Source: Candidatus Wolfebacteria bacterium GW2011_GWB1_47_1
Lineage (GTDB): Bacteria > Patescibacteriota > Minisyncoccia > UBA6257 > UBA9933
DNA: 64,000 bases
Reading direction: 5' to 3'
Assembly (NCBI GenBank): GCA_001029635.1
Contig: CP011209.1
Location: 286,866-350,865, forward strand
Made by a program: the position numbers and the translations under genes. This document shows positions 38,012 through 54,918 of this stretch, piece by piece; positions within the stretch are counted from its first letter, which is position 1; each line of letters starts with the position of its first letter. Below the pieces are notes generated by a model. That model did not search any database. It was given only the letters and a program-made list of their open reading frames with translations, and was not told the origin of the DNA.

Positions 38012-38121
38012 TCCCGGATCGAATTTCCGGGACTTTTTTGCCCCTATTGACAAATATCTGAATTACTATATAGTGAAGAAGCTTTGCTTTGACAAGGAAG
38101 AGAGGAGTGTGTTATAGCCTC

Positions 38122-38149
38122 TTGACAAATAAAATTTATCTGTTATAAT
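38122..38149 (+). promoter_or_regulatory. Near-consensus sigma70 promoter with extended -10
   Basis: TTGACA-16 nt-TGTTATAAT. Two weaker TTGACA boxes lie upstream at 38048 and 38089. Confidence 0.65.
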
Positions 38150-38155
38150 ATATTT

Positions 38156-38398
38156 ATAACAGTGAAACATCGGTGGCTTGCACTGAGCTTGCCGAAGTGG
38201 AAGAAAGACTATTTGGTTCTGTGGGTTCTTAAGGAATTTCTCTTAGGCTTAGGATGTTCTGGTTTCGGCTGGGGCACTCCTCGGAGAAATTCTAAATTTC
38301 TTACTGGTGTAAGATTTCAAAAATTTTTACACCCACAGAACCAAGGAGTGTTTCTCCGGTGAAAGTAACCAAAACCCCCGCGTAAGCGGGGGTTTTGG
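38156..38398 (+). ncRNA. Candidate ~240-nt structured small RNA (rod-like, class unknown)
   Basis: Begins just after the consensus promoter. Long-range 14-bp pairing ttggttctgtgggt / acccacagaaccaa and inner pairing ggaatttctc / gagaaattcc. Ends with intrinsic terminator cccccgc-gtaa-gcggggg-TTTT at 38375-38398. The overlapping 66-aa ORF is unconvincing. Confidence 0.45.
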
Positions 38399-38556
38399 TT
38401 AAATGGTATCTGCGAACTATAAAAATGGCGGACTAAATGGCTGATGAAAATTCCCTGGGAGCGAAAATTCGAGGTCTCGGCAGGTAGGCAGGCAGGGGTT
38501 TGGTTTCGTAAGGAATTTTGAGTCCATTCGCCACTTTTATTTCGGTTCGCGATTTC

Positions 38557-38716
38557 GCCCTTGGCATTGTTAACGATCCGTCAGCAGGAGGAGGATATGC
38601 AACGGGCCGGGCTGTCGGATTCGATTTTTCCGACACGAATTCGACGGACATACTTTTTATAAAAAATAAGTTATTTTAAAAAAAGAAGTGGATTCCCGCC
38701 TCCGCGGGGATGACAA
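38557..38716. repeat. MITE/REP-like element copy
   Basis: ccct(t/c)ggc.ttg.ta..gatccgtcag...gcaacg.gccggg is shared with 54744-54795. Ends ggattcccgcctccgcggggatgaca. Confidence 0.5.
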
Positions 38717-38737
38717 GTGCGAAGCGAAATATAAACT

Positions 38738-38775
38738 AAAACGCGCGGTCCTATTAATAGGACCGCGCGTTTTTC
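38738..38775 (-). terminator. Rho-independent terminator downstream of pilB
   Basis: gcgcggtcc-tattaat-aggaccgcgc with flanking A and T runs. Confidence 0.65.
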
Positions 38776-38798
38776 GTACCTCTTCCATATTCCATTTT

Positions 38799-40481
38799 TC
38801 ATATTTCGTTTTTCGAGTCCGTTGGCCATTCGATCGGGCCGGTCACCCCCTCGACTTCATCAAACGTGGTCATGCCAGCGATGACCTTGAGAATGCCGTC
38901 CTCCTGCATGGTTGTCATGCCGTTTTCTCGGGCAAACTTGAGGAAGGTCTGTTCGCCTGCCATATTCGCGATCAATTCTTCAAGTCCAGGTTGCTTAGTA
39001 AAGAGCTCGTAGATGGCGACGCGCCCCTTGTATCCGGTATTGTTGCAGACATCGCATCCGATGGGAGCGAATAGAGTCGGCGTGTTATAAGTTGCGCGGT
39101 TGACGCGAGTGGGGAGCGCGGCGACAAACTGGTCAAACTTGCTCTTCAGATCGGCATCGAGCGGCATTGGTGTCTTGCAGTTAGTGCAGAGGCGGCGGAT
39201 GAGTCGTTGCGCGATGACGAGCGTAAGTGCCGGTCCGATGGACTGCGGCTTCACGTTTAGATCGAGCAAGCGGGGGACGGCTCCCGCGGCAGAGTTGGTA
39301 TGCAGTGTCGAGAAGACCAAATGTCCGGTGAGGGCCGCTTGGATGGCGATCTCTGCGGTTTCCTGGTCGCGTATTTCTCCGACCAGAATAACGTCAGGGT
39401 CTTGGCGCATTAATGAGCGAAGACCATTGGCAAAGGTGTATCCGCTTGCATTGTTGATCTGCGTCTGCTCGATTCCCTCGAGGTGATATTCGATTGGATC
39501 TTCAATGGTGATGATCTTTTCGGTCGGGTCCGCCTTTGCGCCGAGAAACGTATAGAGCGTGGTCGTCTTACCGGATCCGGTAGGCCCGGTATTGAGAATC
39601 ATGCCATTGGGACGGTTAAGCTCGACATTGATGATCGCAAGGTCGTCCTCGCGCAACCCAAGCTGCGGGAGCGTGATCTTGATCGCATCAGGGTCGAGTA
39701 GGCGCATAACGGCGACTTCGCCAAACTGGGCAGGGGCGATGGCAACGCGGACCTCGACATCTTTCTGGGGAAAGCGGATGGTGAAGCGGCCATCCTGCGC
39801 TTCCTTGGTAACGTTTAGTTTCAAACTTGAAAGAAGTTTGATGCGGGTCAGGAGAAACGGATAAAAATCCTTCGTAAAGGTAAAAATATCATGGAGATTA
39901 CCATCGATGCGTAGGCGTAGCTTTCCATCATGTTCACTTGGCTCAAGATGGATGTCAGATGCACGGGTGCCCATGGCACCGCGAGAAATGATCTCAAGCA
40001 CTTCGCCTGCCTTACTGGGGGAGAACTCTTCTTCGCTAAGAACTTCTTTGAGACCAGCGATTGAATTGAGTCGATCAGCGAGTTCGATGACGCGCTGTTC
40101 GATCTGCACCTTGCCAGTGATCTTCTCGGTTTCCTTTGCGACATAGCGATAATAGCTCAAGGCATAGTCCATACTGGATGGACTGACGATATAATCGGTA
40201 ACGGTATATCCCTTTGCAACAAGGTCATCCAGTGCTTGCTTTGTTTTTGCGCGGGTCGGATCCAGAGTGACAACGGCGAGCTGGTTCACCTTGCGCTCGA
40301 TGGCAGCAACAGATGCTTCGCGGGCAGTCGTTTCGGGAATCACCGAAAGAGCCTCGATATTGATCGGGGTTTTTGTAAGGGTTATATACTTTTTATTGAG
40401 CGCAACGGCACGATGCTGCGCTTCGCGCTCCTGCGCTTCCTTTTTGATGCGATCTAACTTTTGGGTTAATGTTTCTTCCAT
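38799..40481 (-). CDS. pilB: Type II/IV secretion system ATPase (PilB/GspE family)
   Basis: N-terminal GSPII_E_N region, Walker A GPTGSGKTTTLY, and the Asp/His boxes of secretion ATPases. Confidence 0.9.
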   Translation of the reverse strand: MEETLTQKLDRIKKEAQEREAQHRAVALNKKYITLTKTPINIEALSVIPETTAREASVAAIERKVNQLAVVTLDPTRAKTKQALDDLVAKGYTVTDYIVSPSSMDYALSYYRYVAKETEKITGKVQIEQRVIELADRLNSIAGLKEVLSEEEFSPSKAGEVLEIISRGAMGTRASDIHLEPSEHDGKLRLRIDGNLHDIFTFTKDFYPFLLTRIKLLSSLKLNVTKEAQDGRFTIRFPQKDVEVRVAIAPAQFGEVAVMRLLDPDAIKITLPQLGLREDDLAIINVELNRPNGMILNTGPTGSGKTTTLYTFLGAKADPTEKIITIEDPIEYHLEGIEQTQINNASGYTFANGLRSLMRQDPDVILVGEIRDQETAEIAIQAALTGHLVFSTLHTNSAAGAVPRLLDLNVKPQSIGPALTLVIAQRLIRRLCTNCKTPMPLDADLKSKFDQFVAALPTRVNRATYNTPTLFAPIGCDVCNNTGYKGRVAIYELFTKQPGLEELIANMAGEQTFLKFARENGMTTMQEDGILKVIAGMTTFDEVEGVTGPIEWPTDSKNEI

Positions 40482-40678: not shown

Positions 40679-40963
40679 TTACATTTCCTGCGTTTCGCGC
40701 GGGATTCTCGTGGAACCTTCCGGTTCGACGATTTTAAGATTTACGCGTGCGTGGTTTTTGACACCCACGATGCGAAGGAGGGAGCGGATCGCTTTTGCGG
40801 TGGATCCTTGTCGTCCGACGATCTGACCCATGTCGAGCGGGTTTACTCGCAAACTAAGGAGTACCCCCATCTCATCGACCTTGCGCTCGACTACTACCTC
40901 TTCAGGGTGATCGACGATTGACTTGACGAGAAACTCGAGGAATGCCTGGTCTTTTTCTTCCAT
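40679..40963 (-). CDS. KH-domain RNA-binding protein (YlqC/KhpA-like)
   Basis: IVGRQGSTAKAIRSL KH GxxG motif. Conserved position downstream of rpsP. Confidence 0.75.
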   Translation of the reverse strand: MEEKDQAFLEFLVKSIVDHPEEVVVERKVDEMGVLLSLRVNPLDMGQIVGRQGSTAKAIRSLLRIVGVKNHARVNLKIVEPEGSTRIPRETQEM

Positions 40964-41100
40964 GTCTCTGATTGCTGTTCGTATGCTACGTTCGTGCTAT
41001 GCGACCTTTGAATTTTAAATATGGTATAAGTATACGGATTATCGAAAAATATTACAATAAAAAATCCTCCGCGCTGGGCGGAGGATTTTTTAAATGGAAA

Positions 41101-41556
41101 TTATTCAGTAGGAGCTTCTTCGGCTGCTTCAACTGGTGCGTCTTCTACAGCTTCTTGTGCTGCGGCTGCAGCCTCTGCTTCGGCAGCTTTGGCAGCCTTG
41201 GCTTCTTCTGAGGCCTTTGCTTCAGCTTCGGCCTTGGCCTTTGCTGCAGCTTCAGCTGCCTTGCGCGGAGCATCTAATGCTTCCTGATGTGCCTTGATAT
41301 CGTGTGAGGACTTTTTCTTGCCCTTAATAACGCCATCCTTCACAAAGATGTTGTGTACGGTGTCGGTCGGCTGGGCTCCTACACTGATCCAATAGGCTGC
41401 ACGCTCCTTGTTTACGGAATGCGCTTTATCGCGCGGATTCCAGAATCCAAGGTCTTCAACATATTTCCCACCCATTTTTGATCGCTTTTCTGCGACTACG
41501 ATGCGGAAGGTCGGCTGGTGCTTCTTCCCGATTCGATTTAACTTTATTGCTAACAT
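41101..41556 (-). CDS. rpsP: 30S ribosomal protein S16 with an Ala/Glu/Lys-rich C-terminal extension
   Basis: MLAIKLNRIGKKHQPTFRIVVAEKRSKMGGKYVEDLGFWNP. The ORF track extends to 41700 but the S16 start is the Met at 41556. Confidence 0.85.
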   Translation of the reverse strand: MLAIKLNRIGKKHQPTFRIVVAEKRSKMGGKYVEDLGFWNPRDKAHSVNKERAAYWISVGAQPTDTVHNIFVKDGVIKGKKKSSHDIKAHQEALDAPRKAAEAAAKAKAEAEAKASEEAKAAKAAEAEAAAAAQEAVEDAPVEAAEEAPTE

Positions 41557-41684
41557 AGTTGTAGTAGAATACTGAATAACCGGAAAAAATGCAAGGGCTA
41601 GGCGATATAATTGACCAAAAGCAAAGAATGTGGTAATTATGAATACAGCACGCAAAAACATGAACAAAAAGGGAGGTCGGTAGT

Positions 41685-42047
41685 ATGGTACGAGAAACAA
41701 TTTTAGTGGTAAGTGGAAAAAGTGAGATGGTCACAGGCGTGATCACGGCGCTAGGATGCAATGAGATTAATACGGCAGCCAATAGGGCGATTCGGGTAGT
41801 TGAGCGTTTCATTGGTGAGTTCGGACAGGGGATCCCTGTTGCTATCGTACATGAGGAGAATCCGGATACCGTGAGTGTACTTGCGGACAGGCTAAAGCGC
41901 GTCTGCGGCAGTACGCATGTCATCGTGATGTCGTCGAGGATTGGGTATCCGACTCGCGACGCCGATCGAGAATACGATGCGATCATCCCGTATAGCGAGG
42001 GGGCCTTGAGGGATATAGTAGAGTCCTTCCTGGATATAAAGGGGTAA
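41685..42047 (+). CDS. Small CheY-like receiver-domain-only protein (paralog 1; acceptor Asp apparently replaced)
   Basis: Flavodoxin-like beta-alpha pattern ILVVSGKSEM...VAIVHEENPD. SD AGGGAGG upstream. Confidence 0.35.
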   Translation: MVRETILVVSGKSEMVTGVITALGCNEINTAANRAIRVVERFIGEFGQGIPVAIVHEENPDTVSVLADRLKRVCGSTHVIVMSSRIGYPTRDADREYDAIIPYSEGALRDIVESFLDIKG

Positions 42048-42144
42048 TGATACGGCGGGCTTTAGCCCGCTTTTTTGTTGACTAAGTATTTGAATGTGTG
42101 GTATTCCTAAGGCAGCTATTATTGTTACGAATAAAGGAGGGGCT

Positions 42145-42510
42145 ATGCGAGCGAGTGTTCTGGTTGTCGGGGATGAAATCGTAAAGACGGGGGAAGGCGA
42201 GTTGTTTCACTGCCTTGCGGGGGATGCGTTCGAGCGGGTGTATCATGTTGGCTTTATAGATGCGTTCGAGCAGTACCGGGAGACAGCCGAGGACGGCTGG
42301 AGTATGGTCATCATCGACGGCGGTCTGAATGAAAATATTATGCAGCTGATGAATCAACTGCGCGATGTGAATGCAGACCAGCAGATCGTCGTGGTTGACA
42401 AAGGGTTCGCAGAGATCGTTGAGTTCTCTCGCGCAGGCATTATCGTCCCGCGTGATGGGGAGATCCTGTCGCGTGCATTGCGGGAGCTCGGAATGGGAGC
42501 CTCGGTATAA
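42145..42510 (+). CDS. Small CheY-like receiver-domain-only protein (paralog 2)
   Basis: VLVVGDE...MVIIDGGL...IVVVDKG. SD AAAGGAGG 7 nt upstream of the ATG at 42145 (ORF track starts at 42094). Has its own terminator-promoter module. Confidence 0.4.
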   Translation: MRASVLVVGDEIVKTGEGELFHCLAGDAFERVYHVGFIDAFEQYRETAEDGWSMVIIDGGLNENIMQLMNQLRDVNADQQIVVVDKGFAEIVEFSRAGIIVPRDGEILSRALRELGMGASV

Positions 42511-42578
42511 TCGACTAGTAGGAAACCCTCGGTGGGTATACAAAAACGCCGGTCCAAGACCGGCGCTTTTTTTATTTG

Positions 42579-44780
42579 TCATACGACTTCGGGAGACCCG
42601 AACTGTACGGAGAGGAGTTTTGACGTGCCATCCTCATTCATGGTGACGCCATAGAGCACGTCGGCAACTTCCATGATCGTGCGGTTGTGGGTCACGACGA
42701 TGAATTGTACCTTGTGCGCGAACTCCTTGATGAGATGAGCGAACCGTTCGGAGTTTCGTTCATCGAGTGGCGCGTCAATCTCATCGAGTACAAGAAATGG
42801 GGGAGGGCTGACGGATATGAGCGCAAAAAGCGCTGCGATCGAGACGAGACTCTTCTCTCCTCCCGAAAGGACATCAAGACTATTGATGCGCTTTTTTGGA
42901 AGGGATAGCTCGATCTCGATGCCTGCCTGGAGCGGCTCGTCATTCTGTCGAGATTCCTCCAGTTCGGATACTTCCCCGCTCAGTTCTTCGACGATATGCT
43001 CGATGCTGTGCGTTTTGATCTTCATCTTCGCCGATCCGCCACCGAACATCAAACGGAAGAAATGATTAAACTGGTCGTTAATGTCCTTGAACGCATTGTT
43101 GAATTTTCCGCTTACATCGCGCTTGAGTTCTTCGACAAGTTCGGCAAGGTCGACGGATGCCTTCTCAAGATCGGCCGACTGGGTGGTTAGGTGTGTATGA
43201 TGTGCTTCTACCTCATTTGCCTCGGTGATAAGCGTTTCATCAACGTCTCCGATCGAAAGCAGTTCTGCACGAAGGCGGAATATCTGACGCTCCAAGTCTA
43301 AAAGATCCTGGTCGCTGAGTCCTTCGGTCGCGATAAGCATATCAAACTGTGATTCGGCGCGATCGTTGCGGATCCATTCCGATCGAAGATCATCGAGACG
43401 GATAGACAACTTTTCGTTTTCAAAGGCGAGGTGTTGGATGCGACTTTCGATGGCCCGGATTTCTTCCCGTTTTATTTCCTTGCGTCCGAAGGCTTCGCGG
43501 AAGCGACTGTTAAAATCTTCCAGTCCCTGTGAAAGGGATTCCTGTGTAGAGCGGACTGTGGCTAATTGCTCGTCGAGTTCGGCGAGTGACGTAAGGAGGG
43601 TTGTCTTTTCGCGTTCGATCTCTTCTTGTGCCGCGGAATAATCGGGCTTGGGAAGGTCGAGTTTCGGGGGATTGAGATAGGATTCGATCTTCGCAATAAC
43701 TGATTTAATGGTTTGGGAAAGATGGGCAGAATCTTCAGAATCGGCGCTGGTATCGAGTGCGTGCTTGATCTGGCGGATGAGGGCGAGCATCTCGTCCTTG
43801 CGATAGACTACGCCCTGATCGGATGTCGTATCGGTTGAGAATTCAAGCTTTGCTTCAAGGCGCGCAATGTCCTTTTGTAGCTGAAATCGCTTAGTAAGTA
43901 ATTCGGTTTCCTGCGCCTTGAGCGCTGATGTTTCCGTGTGCTGATCCTTAGTTGATTCGATTGTTGTGAGTGTATGCTCGAGTTCGGTCAATTCGTGTTG
44001 CTTTGCGCCGATACTATTCTGGAGATCGTGCAGTACGGAATTGTTCTGCCGCAGTGCGAATTTGAGAGCAATGGTTTTGGTTCCAAAGTACGTATTCTCG
44101 GACGCGATGAGCTCGTCCTGTTTTTGGTCACGGGTCTGGTACTTTGCGACCTGCCGCTTGAGCATGCGCAGACGGGGAGTGACTTCCTCGATCATGATCC
44201 GGACCTTTTCAAGATTATTAGCCGTATTCTTGAGCTTGCGCTCTGCCTCGAGCTTCTTGAGCTGATATTCCTTAAGTCCGAGAATCTCTTCGATCATAAA
44301 TCGGCGCTCCTGGGGAGTGGCACGGACAAAAAGATCACTCGATCCTTGATTGATGATAGTGAGTCCACGGGTGCCGAGACGCGCGCGGGCAAAGAAATCG
44401 ATGATATCCTTTGCGCGAACATCGGATTTGTTCAATGCGTAGGTCGAGTTGCCGTCGCGGGAGATTTCCCGACTGACGGATACTTCGTCAAAGTCGAGCG
44501 GAAAGAATTTCTCGCTGTTGTCGAAGTTGATGCTGACCTGTGCTATTCCGGAGCGTGCACGTTTTGGGGTGCCGGCGAAGATAAGATCCTCCGCTTTGGC
44601 TCCGCGAAGATTCTTCGCTTCCCGTTCGCCAAGGATCCACCGGATCGCATCGATGACGTTTGACTTGCCACTTCCGTTCGGTCCGACGATGGCAGTAATG
44701 CCGCCGGGGAATTCCAATACGGTCTTTTGTGCAAACGATTTAAATCCATTCAGTTCAAGTGATTTCAATAACATATCCAT
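42579..44780 (-). CDS. smc: SMC-family chromosome segregation ATPase (compact, 733 aa)
   Basis: N-terminus FKSFAQKTVLEFPGGITAIVGPNGSGKSNVIDAIRWILGE. C-terminal LSGGEKSLVSIAALFALI signature plus Walker B LVLDEIDAPLD. Long coiled coils. Confidence 0.75.
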   Translation of the reverse strand: MDMLLKSLELNGFKSFAQKTVLEFPGGITAIVGPNGSGKSNVIDAIRWILGEREAKNLRGAKAEDLIFAGTPKRARSGIAQVSINFDNSEKFFPLDFDEVSVSREISRDGNSTYALNKSDVRAKDIIDFFARARLGTRGLTIINQGSSDLFVRATPQERRFMIEEILGLKEYQLKKLEAERKLKNTANNLEKVRIMIEEVTPRLRMLKRQVAKYQTRDQKQDELIASENTYFGTKTIALKFALRQNNSVLHDLQNSIGAKQHELTELEHTLTTIESTKDQHTETSALKAQETELLTKRFQLQKDIARLEAKLEFSTDTTSDQGVVYRKDEMLALIRQIKHALDTSADSEDSAHLSQTIKSVIAKIESYLNPPKLDLPKPDYSAAQEEIEREKTTLLTSLAELDEQLATVRSTQESLSQGLEDFNSRFREAFGRKEIKREEIRAIESRIQHLAFENEKLSIRLDDLRSEWIRNDRAESQFDMLIATEGLSDQDLLDLERQIFRLRAELLSIGDVDETLITEANEVEAHHTHLTTQSADLEKASVDLAELVEELKRDVSGKFNNAFKDINDQFNHFFRLMFGGGSAKMKIKTHSIEHIVEELSGEVSELEESRQNDEPLQAGIEIELSLPKKRINSLDVLSGGEKSLVSIAALFALISVSPPPFLVLDEIDAPLDERNSERFAHLIKEFAHKVQFIVVTHNRTIMEVADVLYGVTMNEDGTSKLLSVQFGSPEVV

Positions 44781-46829: not shown

Positions 46830-47036
46830 TTATTTCGTTGCTTCTTTTTTGACGCGCAATCGAGGAGCCTTTACGACAGATCCCTTGTAGCTTCCGCAGT
46901 TTCCGCACATACGGTGCGGCATAACAGGGGCCTGGCAGCTCGGGCAGACTGCGATCTGGCTCGGCTTAAGGGCTAAGTGTGATCGTCGTCGTCCAACTTT
47001 TGATTTAGTGTGATGTTTTACTGGTACTCCACCCAT
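46830..47036 (-). CDS. rpmF: 50S ribosomal protein L32
   Basis: KSKVGRRRSHLAL...CPSC...CGNCGSYKG zinc-ribbon L32. Confidence 0.85.
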   Translation of the reverse strand: MGGVPVKHHTKSKVGRRRSHLALKPSQIAVCPSCQAPVMPHRMCGNCGSYKGSVVKAPRLRVKKEATK

Positions 47037-47162
47037 AGTGATTGAACTCTAGTGAATAAATGAGCCCTTAGGCCCGTATCTAGAGAATAATAGGGAAATA
47101 AAGGGCAAATGTCAAATAAAACTGCCCGCGCAAGGCGAGCAGTGAGAAAACGATAAGGAAGA

Positions 47163-47600: not shown

Positions 47601-48638
47601 TTGTTTCCCATCTCCTATGATAGGATAAAACCAATGAACGGGAACCCGATGGAACAAAAGAAAGGAGAGCAAGATTTTCAGATCGACACGTTGTTGCGAC
47701 CGGATAATTGGGATTCCTATATAGGACAGGAGCGTATTAAGGCGAACGTGAAGATCATGATCGAGGCCGCGCAAAAGCGCGGGGAGCGACCTGATCACCT
47801 ACTCTTCTATGGCCCGCAGGGGCTAGGCAAGACGACGATCGCGAATCTGATCGCAAAGGAAATGGGTGCGCAGTTACGTATTACTTCGGGTGTAAACCTG
47901 GAAAAGACGGGAGACCTAGTGTCGACGCTTGCGAATCTCGAAGAAGGGGATATTTTGTTCGTTGATGAAGCACACCGCATCAACCGAACAATCGAGGAAA
48001 TTCTCTACCCGGCGATGGAGAGTAGAAAGCTTCATATGATGGTAGGGAAGGGGCCGGCGGCACGGCAGCTGACGCTCGACTTGCCGGCATTCACGCTGAT
48101 CGCAGCGACAACGCGCGTAAATTTGTTGTCCGCTCCGCTCCGCTCCCGTTTTGGCGCGATCTTCAGTATGGACTATTATGAGCAGGCGCATATCGAAGAG
48201 ATTATCCGTCGATCGGCGGGGATTCTCGGATTACAGATCGAAAGTGGTGCGGTTGCGTCGATTGCTCGTGCTGCGCGTTTTACGCCGCGAACGGCAAACC
48301 GGTTACTCAAGCGTGTGCGCGATTATGCCCAGGTGCACAACATGGCGACGATCGGGGAGGAGGCGGTCTACGACACGCTCGAGATGCTGGAGATCGATGA
48401 ACTTGGCCTGGAGAAATGGGATAGAAAGTTACTGGAAAGCATCATTAAGAAGTTTAAAGGAGGTCCAGTTGGTCTCAATACACTAGTTGCCATTCTAGGT
48501 GAGGATAAAGGGACGGTTGAGGAGATCTATGAACCCTTCCTTATTAAGATGGGATTGTTGCAGAAGACGCCATCAGGACGTGTGGTCACCGACGAGGCGT
48601 ATGATCATTTGAATTTAAGACAGTTTAAGGTACAATGA
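47601..48638 (+). CDS. ruvB: Holliday junction branch-migration helicase RuvB
   Basis: LRP..W..YIGQE, Walker A GPQGLGKTT, sensor and arginine finger, C-terminal winged helix. Confidence 0.9.
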   Translation: MFPISYDRIKPMNGNPMEQKKGEQDFQIDTLLRPDNWDSYIGQERIKANVKIMIEAAQKRGERPDHLLFYGPQGLGKTTIANLIAKEMGAQLRITSGVNLEKTGDLVSTLANLEEGDILFVDEAHRINRTIEEILYPAMESRKLHMMVGKGPAARQLTLDLPAFTLIAATTRVNLLSAPLRSRFGAIFSMDYYEQAHIEEIIRRSAGILGLQIESGAVASIARAARFTPRTANRLLKRVRDYAQVHNMATIGEEAVYDTLEMLEIDELGLEKWDRKLLESIIKKFKGGPVGLNTLVAILGEDKGTVEEIYEPFLIKMGLLQKTPSGRVVTDEAYDHLNLRQFKVQ

Positions 48639-54722: not shown

Positions 54723-54918
54723 TCCAGACTTAACCCTCGGCGTTGCTAGTGATCCGTCAGACGACGGAGAGCGTGCAACGTGCCGGGATACTCGAAGTGC
54801 GTAAGGTTTCTGCGCTTCAAGTGATCCGGAATCCAGAGTCTGAACACTTAAACACCATCATTGCAGAAAACTCTGGATCCCGGCATTCGCCGGGATGACA
54901 CCAGCCCTCCTCACATTG
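54718..54918. repeat. MITE/REP-like element (~200 bp) with GTCATTCC / GGGATGACA termini
   Basis: gtcattccagac...ggatcccggcattcgccgggatgacacc. The internal segment matches 38557-38611. Confidence 0.55.

What the first reader, a model, noticed from the sequence alone, without database searches (positions are those of the whole stretch)
38122..38398. Candidate structured sRNA driven by a textbook sigma70 promoter
TTGACA-16-TGTTATAAT is the strongest promoter in the window. It is followed by a ~240-nt region with nested long-range helices, a rod-like structure comparable to 6S RNA, and it ends in a canonical intrinsic terminator. There is no credible ORF or RBS. Two additional TTGACA boxes sit just upstream.
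Basis: seen in the sequence. Interest (0 to 1): 0.55.

Follow-up and report, generated by a model that had tools for sequence, protein, structure and literature searches.

The report
New conserved structured RNA in Parcubacteria
The flagged stretch is a real, independently transcribed, highly structured small RNA gene, conserved across a whole class of ultra-small uncultivated bacteria (Parcubacteria/Paceibacteria); it matches no known RNA family and its function is still unknown.

Summary
Window 38122-38400 carries the only 12/12 sigma-70 promoter in the 64 kb. It drives a ~245-nt RNA that folds far better than shuffles (z = -9.4) and ends in a canonical terminator.

The window is a Candidatus Wolfebacteria genome. 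The RNA has homologues in more than 150 Parcubacteria genome and metagenome contigs. On 100 distinct sequences, 93% of predicted pairs form and 37 of 45 pairs show compensatory double changes. The architecture is a 22-bp closing helix P1, a long conserved arm P2a/P2b, a hairpin P3 and an optional hairpin P4.

The strand is settled: 60-138 bits on this strand against 25-46 on the other, with many G.U pairs. The strong promoter with an extended -10 is conserved family-wide. The 66-aa ORF is not conserved.

In most genomes the gene sits on the opposite strand in the pilB-to-ruvB spacer, but either neighbour can be lost. The window lacks ruvB there and has a 400-nt spacer before pilB. The conserved role is therefore not a cis-antisense one.

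No Rfam 15 family matches, and the structure has no 6S-type central bubble. Parcubacteria are reported to lack SRP.

Best reading: a new trans-acting stable RNA, probably protein-binding. The function is inferred, not shown.

The parts
38047..38074 (+). Upstream promoter-like box 1: TTGACA-16-TATAGT, an 11/12 match. Possibly a tandem promoter.
   Evidence: Conserved in the Wolfebacteria relatives L005, L006, L116, L132 and L194.
38089..38094 (+). Second upstream TTGACA box. The downstream -10-like sequence is weak (TATAGC after 18 nt).
   Evidence: and the sequence itself. Conserved in Wolfebacteria relatives.
38122..38149 (+). Main promoter: -35 TTGACA at 38122-38127, extended -10 TG at 38141-42, -10 TATAAT at 38144-38149. 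Predicted +1 is near 38156.
   Evidence: the only 12/12 match in the window. An equivalent promoter lies 2-49 nt upstream of P1 in most family members. The +1 position is inferred from spacing, not measured.
38140..38162 (.). Perfect palindrome CTGTTATAA-N5-TTATAACAG overlapping the -10 element and the predicted start site. It could be an operator or a leader hairpin. Specific to the Wolfebacteria relatives.
   Evidence: Read from the sequence. Arms are largely kept in L005, L116, L132 and L194. Its function was not tested.
38156..38400 (+). Predicted primary transcript, about 245 nt in this strain and about 210 nt in strains without the 35-nt insertion.
   Evidence: Bounded by the promoter and terminator. 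Fold z-score is -9.4.
38165..38199 (+). Strain-specific 35-nt insertion in the 5' leader. It forms its own hairpin and is flanked by an AGTG direct repeat.
   Evidence: Absent from L005, L006, L116, L132 and L194. Replaced by a gap plus NN in the otherwise identical assembly L002. Hairpin seen.
38199..38226 (+). P1, 5' strand. This is the closing helix. The family core is 38204-38226 and includes the near-invariant CUGUGGGU.
   Evidence: 20 of 22 pairs show double compensatory changes.
38232..38243 (+). P2a, 5' strand (AGGAAUUUCUCU).
   Evidence: 10 of 11 pairs show double changes.
38244..38251 (+). P2 internal loop, 5' side. Contains the conserved UAG followed by a variable bulge.
   Evidence: Alignments A2 and A3.
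38252..38280 (+). P2b hairpin. Features: the invariant GGA...UCC pairs, tandem U.G/G.U wobbles next to an invariant G-C pair, and a UUCG loop at 38264-38267.
   Evidence: G-C 100/100 at three pairs, G.U 87/100, and 7 of 12 pairs with double changes.
38281..38293 (+). Internal loop 3' side (UC) and the P2a 3' strand (GGAGAAAUUCU). Together with the preceding UCC this forms the conserved UCCUC pentamer (each base kept in 36-40 of the 40 best hits).
38299..38314 (+). P3 hairpin (UCUUAC-UGGU-GUAAGA).
   Evidence: A hairpin at this position is found in essentially all of 116 non-redundant members, with widely different sequences.
38315..38330 (+). A/U-rich single-stranded linker. Many relatives carry the optional hairpin P4 at this position.
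38331..38358 (+). P1, 3' strand (ACCCACAGA...).
38367..38400 (+). Intrinsic terminator: arms 38367-38381 and 38386-38400, loop GUAA, U-run 38393-38396.
   Evidence: Conserved in Wolfebacteria relatives. In 59 of 99 other members a U-run follows P1 directly instead.
38401..38798 (.). Non-conserved spacer between the RNA terminator and the pilB stop codon. Includes the bidirectional pilB terminator at 38738-38773.
   Evidence: Relatives carry different cargo here, including an MntA/HepT toxin-antitoxin pair.
38799..40481 (-). pilB, the type IV pilus assembly ATPase. This convergent neighbour is conserved across the family.
   Evidence: Pfam T2SSE, E = 4e-115. Synteny shown.

Best explanation
This is the gene for a previously undescribed, single-copy, stable structured small RNA. 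It is conserved across the class Paceibacteria (Parcubacteria/OD1) of the Candidate Phyla Radiation.

Shown:
- It is transcribed on the + strand of the window from its own near-consensus sigma-70 promoter with an extended -10.
- It folds into a long closing helix P1, a conserved arm P2a-loop-P2b, a hairpin P3 and an optional hairpin P4, arranged around a multi-helix junction.
- It ends at a U-run that directly follows P1, or, as in the window, at a separate terminator hairpin.

Inferred:
- It acts in trans rather than on its neighbours.
- Its most constrained parts are base-paired or junction nucleotides that stay invariant instead of covarying. These are the GGA/UCC pairs, the G.U/G-C motif, the UCCUC pentamer, the top of P1 and the base of P2a. 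There is no long single-stranded seed. It therefore most likely works as a specific binding platform for a conserved cellular protein, as the RNA subunit or a sequestering partner of an RNP.

The partner and the process are unknown.
For: Real, structured RNA:
- Fold z = -9.4.
- 33 homologues gave 39 of 46 pairs with compensatory changes.
- On 100 distinct sequences, 93.3% of cells are paired against 75.5% in shuffles. 37 of 45 pairs carry double changes, 0 of 500 shuffles reach any measure, and register-slide controls give 39-52%.

Strand: 60-138 bits on this strand against 25-46 bits on the other, with abundant G.U pairs.

Own promoter: conserved family-wide.

Purifying selection on the RNA itself: 96% identity in the core against 67-72% in flanking genes.

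Breadth:
- More than 50 of 80 pilB-anchored Parcubacteria loci carry it.
- 98 of 120 pattern-found contigs (119 metagenome plus one viral) are true members.
- Distant lineages (Giovannoni-, Taylor-, Campbell-, Sung- and Zambryski-bacteria) keep a diverged copy in the same spacer.

Trans action:
- Adjacency to ruvB is lost in the window, L009, L012, L116, L132 and L194.
- Adjacency to pilB is lost in L016, L019-21, L029 and L074.
- The RNA stays intact in all of these.

Binding-platform inference: invariant paired nucleotides (G-C 100/100 at three P2b pairs, P1 top 96-100%), and no conserved unpaired stretch longer than about 4 nt.
Against: - There is no expression data. The transcript ends are predicted only.
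- No partner protein has been identified.
- Invariant helical nucleotides could equally reflect RNA tertiary contacts, ligand binding or catalysis.
- The very tight, widely conserved position on the opposite strand between pilB and ruvB could mean a cis role in most lineages. The promoter abuts the ruvB start and the 3' end abuts or overlaps the pilB stop.
- About 30% of members show no obvious terminator before running antisense into pilB.
Confidence: 0.6

Rival explanations
1. It is the Parcubacterial 6S RNA, or a functional analogue. An abundant RNA would bind the sigma-70 RNA polymerase holoenzyme by mimicking promoter DNA and so regulate transcription globally.
For: - The size (150-190-nt core), the strong and possibly tandem promoters, and two long helices (P1 about 22 bp, P2 about 25 bp) either side of a central region with hairpins on the 3' side recall 6S dimensions.
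- A G/C-rich clamp (GUGGGC/GCCCAC) sits next to the centre.
- Five literature searches found no paper on a 6S RNA or any structured sRNA in these bacteria (a sixth, surfaced only PMC4508563, which does not mention 6S RNA).
Against: - No hit to RF00013 or 6S-Flavo, even at E <= 10 on the isolated RNA of three divergent members.
- The defining large central bubble is absent. The 5' junction strand is 0-7 nt.
- The adjoining P2a helix covaries, with 10 of 11 pairs showing double changes.
- Strong primary-sequence conservation is atypical for 6S.
Confidence: 0.12
2. It is a cis-acting antisense or transcriptional-interference element for the pilB-ruvB gene pair. Its strong promoter fires against transcription coming from pilB towards ruvB, and its transcript is complementary to the pilB 3' end and the ruvB 5' leader.
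For: - In contigs found through the RNA pattern alone, nearly every one with enough flank has pilB convergent at 0-100 nt, sometimes overlapping the stop codon, and ruvB divergent at 30-200 nt. Searches show the same.
- About 30% of members lack an obvious terminator before entering pilB antisense.
- No conserved ruvB promoter was found in the spacer. ruvB may therefore be read through from pilB across the RNA gene.
Against: - The RNA stays 96% conserved where the arrangement is broken. In the window ruvB lies 9 kb away and a 400-nt non-conserved spacer plus two terminators separate the RNA from pilB.
- Other genomes keep it with ruvB but 1.2-3.2 kb from pilB, and in L074 it sits upstream of an inverted ruvB.
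- An elaborate covarying 3/4-way junction with invariant nucleotides is not needed for antisense action.
Confidence: 0.12
3. It is a base-pairing regulatory sRNA. Its conserved UCCUC element resembles an anti-Shine-Dalgarno sequence and would pair with ribosome-binding sites (GAGGA) of target mRNAs.
For: - UCCUC is kept in 36-40 of the 40 best hits, and in 97-100 of 100 for the UCC part.
- It sits partly in the P2 internal loop.
- C/U-rich anti-SD-like motifs are a known sRNA strategy in Gram-positive bacteria (general knowledge, not tested here).
Against: - The UCC is paired with an equally invariant GGA, and only two nucleotides (UC) are unpaired.
- There is no conserved accessible seed of 6 nt or more.
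- No specific target was identified. Any GGA/UCC helix resembles an SD/anti-SD pair by chance.
Confidence: 0.07
4. It is a known universal or mobile RNA in disguise (SRP 4.5S RNA, RNase P RNA, tmRNA, a Y RNA, or a transposon or nuclease guide RNA such as an omega or bridge RNA), or else a small protein gene (the 66-aa ORF).
For: - It lies near an smc-rpsP-KH gene cluster, which in other bacteria often holds ftsY and ffh (general knowledge).
- The 5' leader length varies between strains.
- An ORF is present in the window.
Against: - No Rfam family matches at any threshold.
- There is no GNRA-loop/AGCA SRP motif in the alignment.
- Parcubacteria are reported to lack both ffh and ffs (PMC4508563).
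- The RNA is present once per locus, is syntenic, has no adjacent nuclease or recombinase, and is absent from viral contigs.
- Only 25 of 100 members have any stop-free frame. The ORF start lies in a 35-nt (frameshifting) insertion absent from relatives, and L005 stops after 11 codons.
Confidence: 0.03

Closest known systems
6S RNA (ssrS, Rfam RF00013)
   Same: - A stand-alone, strongly promoted RNA gene of about 150-200 nt.
- Two long helices flank a central region.
- Conserved over a large lineage.
- Not translated.
   Different: - No large central bubble. The 5' junction strand is 0-7 nt and helix P2a covaries.
- Branched, with hairpins P3 and P4.
- Strong primary-sequence conservation.
- No covariance-model score at all.
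SRP RNA (4.5S, ffs) and other universal protein-binding stable RNAs
   Same: The conservation pattern is similar: invariant nucleotides sit inside helices and internal loops of one hairpin arm, while the remaining stems covary. It is a housekeeping-type gene with a strong promoter.
   Different: - No domain IV motif and no Rfam hit.
- The partner protein Ffh and the ffs gene are reported absent from Parcubacteria (PMC4508563).
- The topology is different, a 3/4-way junction.
Orphan structured bacterial ncRNAs found by comparative genomics (such as raiA, OLE, ROOL and GOLLD motif RNAs)
   Same: - Defined only by covariation and conservation.
- Lineage-wide, with complex multi-helix folds and invariant junction or loop nucleotides.
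- Function was unknown at discovery.
   Different: - No sequence or structure match; all of these are in Rfam and none scored.
- Different lineage (Candidate Phyla Radiation).
- Smaller than OLE, ROOL and GOLLD.
- Unusually fixed genomic position between pilB and ruvB.
Cis-encoded antisense RNAs in convergent or divergent gene spacers
   Same: It is encoded on the opposite strand between two co-oriented genes. Its 3' end abuts or overlaps the pilB stop codon and its promoter abuts the ruvB start.
   Different: It remains conserved when either neighbour is lost. It also has a complex covarying structure that antisense function does not require.

Membership tests
6S RNA | Significant match to the 6S covariance models (RF00013, 6S-Flavo) | tested here: not met
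   No 6S hit at gathering score or at E <= 10. Tested on the window RNA, on ten homologue loci and on the isolated RNAs of L040 and L047.
6S RNA | Large central bubble (about 10-15 unpaired nt on each strand) between closing and terminal helices, mimicking an open promoter | tested here: not met
   The 5' junction strand is 0-7 nt, and 0 nt in L040, L014, L038 and others. The adjoining helix P2a is supported by covariation. The 3' side carries hairpins P3 and P4.
6S RNA | Binds the sigma-70 holoenzyme and templates pRNA | not testable with these tools
   This needs biochemistry.
SRP RNA (4.5S) | Covariance-model match, and a domain IV hairpin with a GNRA loop and conserved AGCA/AGG internal loops | tested here: not met
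   No Rfam SRP hit. The P2b loop is UNCG-like or carries insertions, and no AGCA motif appears in alignments A2 and A3.
SRP RNA (4.5S) | Partner protein Ffh present in the lineage | not tested
   The literature reports ffh and ffs absent from all Parcubacteria genomes examined (PMC4508563). This was not checked here on whole genomes.
RNase P RNA / tmRNA / Y RNA / 5S rRNA | Covariance-model match to the family | tested here: not met
   No hits.
Transposon or nuclease guide RNAs (IscB/TnpB omega RNA, IS110 bridge RNA, tracrRNA, retron ncRNA) | Adjacent nuclease, recombinase or RT gene; multi-copy or mobile distribution | tested here: not met
   Present once in the window. Fixed synteny with housekeeping pilB and ruvB. 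The one viral contig that matched the pattern is not a model hit.
Cis-antisense RNA of pilB/ruvB | Obligatory overlap or adjacency with the target gene wherever the RNA occurs | tested here: not met
   The window, L116, L132 and L194 have no ruvB there and a 400-900-nt cargo spacer before pilB. In L016, L019-21 and L029 the RNA is 1.2-3.2 kb from pilB. In L074 the RNA lies upstream of an inverted ruvB.
Riboswitch / cis-regulatory leader | Located in the 5' UTR of a regulated gene, or controlling read-through via a marginally stable P1 | tested here: not met
   There is no downstream gene on the same strand. P1 is a stable 22-bp helix. The window has a separate constitutive-looking terminator.
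Small protein gene | Open reading frame conserved in relatives | tested here: not met
   Only 25 of 100 members have any stop-free frame. The window ORF start lies in a 35-nt insertion absent from relatives. Pfam finds nothing.
Independent structured sRNA gene (generic) | Own promoter, defined 3' end, covariation-supported structure, conservation exceeding that of the flanks | tested here: met

The most novel reading that the evidence does not exclude
The RNA is the subunit of an unrecognised ribonucleoprotein shared by all Paceibacteria. It could be a housekeeping machine, or a global regulator such as an RNA-polymerase- or ribosome-binding RNA with an architecture unlike 6S. That would make it specific to this large, reduced-genome, SRP-less lineage, and a new class of stable RNA comparable in rank to 6S, SRP or tmRNA for these organisms.
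Probability: 0.3. Interest if true: 0.85.

Novelty: categorically new. Interest (0 to 1): 0.64.

Why it matters
Parcubacteria/Paceibacteria are one of the largest uncultivated bacterial lineages. They have genomes of about 1 Mb or less and lack some near-universal machinery; SRP is reported missing.

An RNA of 150-190 nt that these genomes keep in one copy is very unlikely to be dispensable. It has one of their strongest promoters and a near-invariant core across class-level divergence.

Finding what it binds could reveal a lineage-specific RNP or a new mode of global regulation in symbiotic ultra-small bacteria. In practical terms, the covariance model gives a new marker gene and an annotation for a spacer currently left empty or mis-called as small ORFs.

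The claim of novelty is at the level of the RNA family. Nothing in Rfam 15 or the searched literature matches it. The general category, a trans-acting stable sRNA, is familiar, and the mechanism remains unproven.

Tried and rejected
1. Rfam. I scanned at gathering score and at permissive E-values: the window, ten homologue loci and two isolated homologues. Only terminator-driven noise appeared, such as STnc350, ohsC and GcvB at 21-26 bits.

2. Literature. Seven full-text searches on CPR, Parcubacteria or Patescibacteria combined with 6S, structured RNA, ncRNA or small RNA described nothing like this RNA. One useful paper reports that SRP is absent.

3. 66-aa ORF. Rejected.

4. Repeat or mobile element. 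The RNA is single-copy in the window. The viral pattern scan gave one contig, and it failed the model.

5. A conserved ruvB promoter embedded antisense in the RNA gene. Only 16 of 124 members have a weak TAGAAT-type match at a common position. This is inconclusive.

6. Pseudoknot between the conserved UUAG (internal loop) and CUAA (after P2a). By inspection of alignment A3, variants of UUAG (CCAG, CUAG, UACG, CUUG) are not matched by changes in CUAA, so I rejected it. This was visual only.

7. K-turn or loop-E reading of the P2 internal loop. The sequence does not fit the consensus. This rests on my own knowledge, not a tool test.

8. Resemblance of GGCUGG..CAC-UCCU to the 16S rRNA 3' end. I noted it, but the structural context differs (3' strand of a hairpin next to the loop). 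I treat it as probable coincidence. Untested.

9. Riboswitch controlling antisense read-through into pilB. I considered it because a U-run follows P1 directly in 59 of 99 members. I rejected it because P1 is a stable 22-bp helix and the arrangement is lost in several lineages.

Full report
**Observation**

- The promoter is TTGACA-16-TGtTATAAT, a 12/12 match to the sigma-70 consensus with an extended -10. It is the only 12/12 match on either strand of the window.
- Two further TTGACA hexamers lie at 38047 and 38089. The first belongs to an 11/12 promoter. Together, three of the window's 16 plus-strand TTGACA hexamers fall within 80 nt.
- The downstream 246 nt fold to -107.4 kcal/mol against -66.0 +/- 4.4 for dinucleotide shuffles, z = -9.4.
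- The region ends in a GC-rich hairpin (38367-38400) with a GUAA loop and a U-run.
- The 66-aa ORF (38162-38362) has a GTG start, no Shine-Dalgarno sequence and no Pfam match.

**Organism and close relatives**

The flanking 187-aa protein is identical to a protein of Candidatus Wolfebacteria bacterium GW2011_GWE1_48_7, and the locus matches GCA_001002795.1. Wolfebacteria belong to the Candidate Phyla Radiation (Parcubacteria).
- Two relatives whose copy of that protein is only 62-65% identical carry an almost identical RNA, together with all three TTGACA boxes.
- The RNA core is 96% identical, while the adjacent genes are 67-72% identical at DNA level.
- The window strain has a 35-nt insertion (38165-38199) in the 5' leader that forms its own hairpin. 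It is absent from all relatives and is replaced by a gap plus NN in a near-identical assembly.
- The ORF start codon lies at the edge of this insertion. Without the insertion the frame stops after 11 codons.

**A large family with a covarying structure**

I fetched 80 Parcubacteria loci using PilB, the neighbouring gene product. nhmmer with the window RNA then found homologues in about 50 of them, always just beyond the pilB stop and on the opposite strand.

Alignment of 33 and 30 sequences and RNAalifold gave the following structure:
- a 22-bp closing helix P1;
- an 11-bp helix P2a;
- an asymmetric internal loop (5' UAG plus a variable bulge, 3' UC);
- a 12-bp helix P2b capped by a UNCG-type loop.

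39 of 46 predicted pairs show compensatory changes. On the named structure:

| Measure | 30 sequences | 100 distinct sequences |
|---|---|---|
| Cells forming a standard pair | 92% | 93.3% |
| Same, after shuffling | 73% | 75.5% |
| Pairs with double changes | 36 of 45 | 37 of 45 |
| Shuffles reaching any observed measure | 0 of 500 | 0 of 500 |
| Paired with the 3' partner slid by 1-3 columns | 37-50% | 39-52% |

A third hairpin, P3, follows P2a after 2-4 nt in essentially all of 116 non-redundant members. Its sequences differ widely. A fourth hairpin, P4, is optional, and the window has an A/U-rich linker in its place.

Some nucleotides are invariant rather than covarying. These are GGA/UCC at the base of P2b, a G.U/G-C motif near its top, the UCCUC pentamer, the P1 top (CUGUGGGC/GCCCACAG) and the P2a base.

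**Strand, promoter and 3' end**
- The covariance model scores 60-138 bits on the strand convergent with pilB and only 25-46 bits on the other strand of the same sites. G.U pairs are frequent. The window + strand is therefore the RNA strand.
- A sigma-70 promoter lies 2-49 nt upstream of P1. 84 of 118 members match at >=10/12 and 105 of 118 have the TG of an extended -10.
- A U-run follows P1 directly in 59 of 99 members. The Wolfebacteria group and a few others use a separate terminator hairpin. About 30% show no obvious terminator.

**Genomic context**

In most pilB-anchored loci the order is pilB, then the RNA on the opposite strand, then a gene of about 340 aa that Pfam identifies as ruvB. 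The ruvB start lies only 25-130 nt beyond the RNA 5' end.

To remove the anchoring bias I scanned metagenome contigs with a DNA pattern taken from the RNA itself.
- 98 of the 120 pattern matches (119 metagenome contigs plus one viral contig) are true members by the covariance model.
- Nearly every contig with enough flank has pilB convergent at 0-100 nt and ruvB divergent at 30-200 nt.
- More distant Paceibacteria (Giovannoni-, Taylor-, Campbell-, Sung-, Zambryski- and Yanofsky-bacteria) keep a pilB-ruvB spacer, typically of 210-400 nt. It holds a strong promoter and a recognisably diverged copy. Some copies have an extra hairpin in the 5' junction or an insertion at the P2b tip. The weak model hits in these lineages all fall at the expected place, on the strand divergent from ruvB.

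The linkage is not obligatory.
- In the window, ruvB is 9 kb away (47601-48638).
- The window RNA is separated from pilB by a non-conserved 400-nt spacer. In relatives this spacer holds other cargo, for example an MntA/HepT toxin-antitoxin pair.
- In L016, L019-21 and L029 the RNA stays with ruvB but lies 1.2-3.2 kb from pilB.
- In L074 the RNA lies upstream of, and divergent from, an inverted ruvB.

The RNA is intact in all these cases.

**What it is not**
- No Rfam 15 family matches, whether at gathering score or at E <= 10 on the isolated RNA of three divergent members.
- Against 6S RNA: the hallmark central bubble is missing. The 5' junction strand is 0-7 nt, and the helix that would have to be open (P2a) covaries.
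- Against SRP RNA: there is no domain IV motif, and Parcubacteria are reported to lack both ffh and ffs (PMC4508563).
- Against a mobile guide RNA: it is present once in the window and fixed in synteny with housekeeping genes. The one viral contig that matched the pattern is not a model hit.
- Against a protein gene: only 25 of 100 members have any stop-free frame.
- Seven literature searches found no description of such an RNA.

**Mechanism**

Shown: this is an independent, strongly promoted gene for a structured RNA under strong purifying selection across a class-level lineage.

Inferred: it acts in trans, because it survives loss of either neighbour. It most likely works as a specific binding platform for a conserved protein, because its most constrained positions are invariant paired and junction nucleotides rather than an accessible seed.

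I put about 0.6 on this combined statement. The parts carry roughly these weights:

| Part of the statement | Approximate confidence |
|---|---|
| The RNA is real | 0.95 |
| It acts in trans | 0.75 |
| It binds a protein | 0.5 |

The rivals and their weights:

| Rival | Confidence |
|---|---|
| 6S-like RNA polymerase regulator with an aberrant architecture | 0.12 |
| Cis-antisense or interference element for pilB/ruvB | 0.12 |
| Base-pairing sRNA using the anti-SD-like UCCUC | 0.07 |
| Known RNA in disguise, or a small protein gene | 0.03 |

**Verdict**

The 6S comparison is only superficial.

The RNA defines a family with no detectable relative among known RNA families. I rate it as new at the family level, of clear interest to RNA biologists and to people who study the Candidate Phyla Radiation. 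The function remains open.

Noticed in passing
window 38165-38199: A 35-nt insertion in the RNA leader, flanked by an AGTG direct repeat, forms its own hairpin. It is present in the window, L001 and L003, absent from all relatives, and replaced by a gap plus NN in the otherwise identical assembly GCA_003536095.1 (L002). That suggests polymorphism at population level.
   Followed up: partly
window 38140-38162: A perfect 9-bp-arm palindrome, CTGTTATAA-N5-TTATAACAG, overlaps the -10 element and the predicted start of the RNA. It is kept in Wolfebacteria relatives only. It could be a repressor operator, or a leader hairpin of transcripts started at the upstream boxes.
   Followed up: no
window 38401-38798; L116 6967-7549; L132 2231-3138; L194: The stretch between the RNA terminator and pilB is a variable cargo site in Wolfebacteria. 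It is apparently non-coding in the window, holds an unknown 132-aa ORF in L116, and holds an MntA-like nucleotidyltransferase plus a HepT RNase toxin-antitoxin pair in L132 and L194. The 72-aa gene called here in GCA_001002795.1 (window 38433-38651, minus strand) has no Pfam match and lies in non-conserved sequence.
   Followed up: partly
window 38690-38715 and 54875-54900 (plus strand); 34863, 40490 and 54717 (minus strand); also L116, L132, L194: Small GC-rich palindromic intergenic elements ending in GG(A/G)ATGACA, for example TGGATTCCCGCCTCCGCGGGGATGACA. They recur in intergenic regions of this genome and its relatives, like REP or MITE-type repeats. In L194 a different palindromic element is inserted into the loop of the RNA's terminator.
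   Followed up: no
window 38738-38773: A 16-bp perfect hairpin (AAAACGCGCGGTCCTATTAATAGGACCGCGCGTTTT) flanked by A-runs and T-runs. It looks like a bidirectional terminator at the end of pilB. The same hairpin core is conserved in L116.
   Followed up: no
L007-L205 generally; window 38799-40481 and 47601-48638: pilB followed directly by ruvB on the same strand is a very widely conserved gene pair in Paceibacteria. In the window lineage the pair has been split, and ruvB now lies about 9 kb away on the other strand.
   Followed up: partly
window 40679-44780 (minus strand): The smc - 166-aa ORF (no Pfam match) - rpsP - KH (KhpA-like) cluster has no ftsY or ffh between smc and rpsP. This fits the published claim that Parcubacteria lack SRP. 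The encoded S16 ORF is unusually long (199 aa, with the S16 domain at residues 56-112).
   Followed up: no
window 47086-47115 (minus strand) and 46830-47036: A second near-consensus promoter (TTGACA-17-TATTAT, 11/12) sits upstream of a 68-aa ORF. By eye the ORF resembles ribosomal protein L32, with a CxxC...CxxC motif. This was not checked against Pfam.
   Followed up: no
L046, L047, L053, L057, L080 (spacer between pilB and ruvB): In the Giovannonibacteria-like members the RNA carries an extra hairpin in the 5' junction strand and an inserted hairpin at the tip of P2b. The apical loop of P2b is therefore not functionally constrained, whereas the GGA...CUGG/CUGG...UCC helix is.
   Followed up: partly
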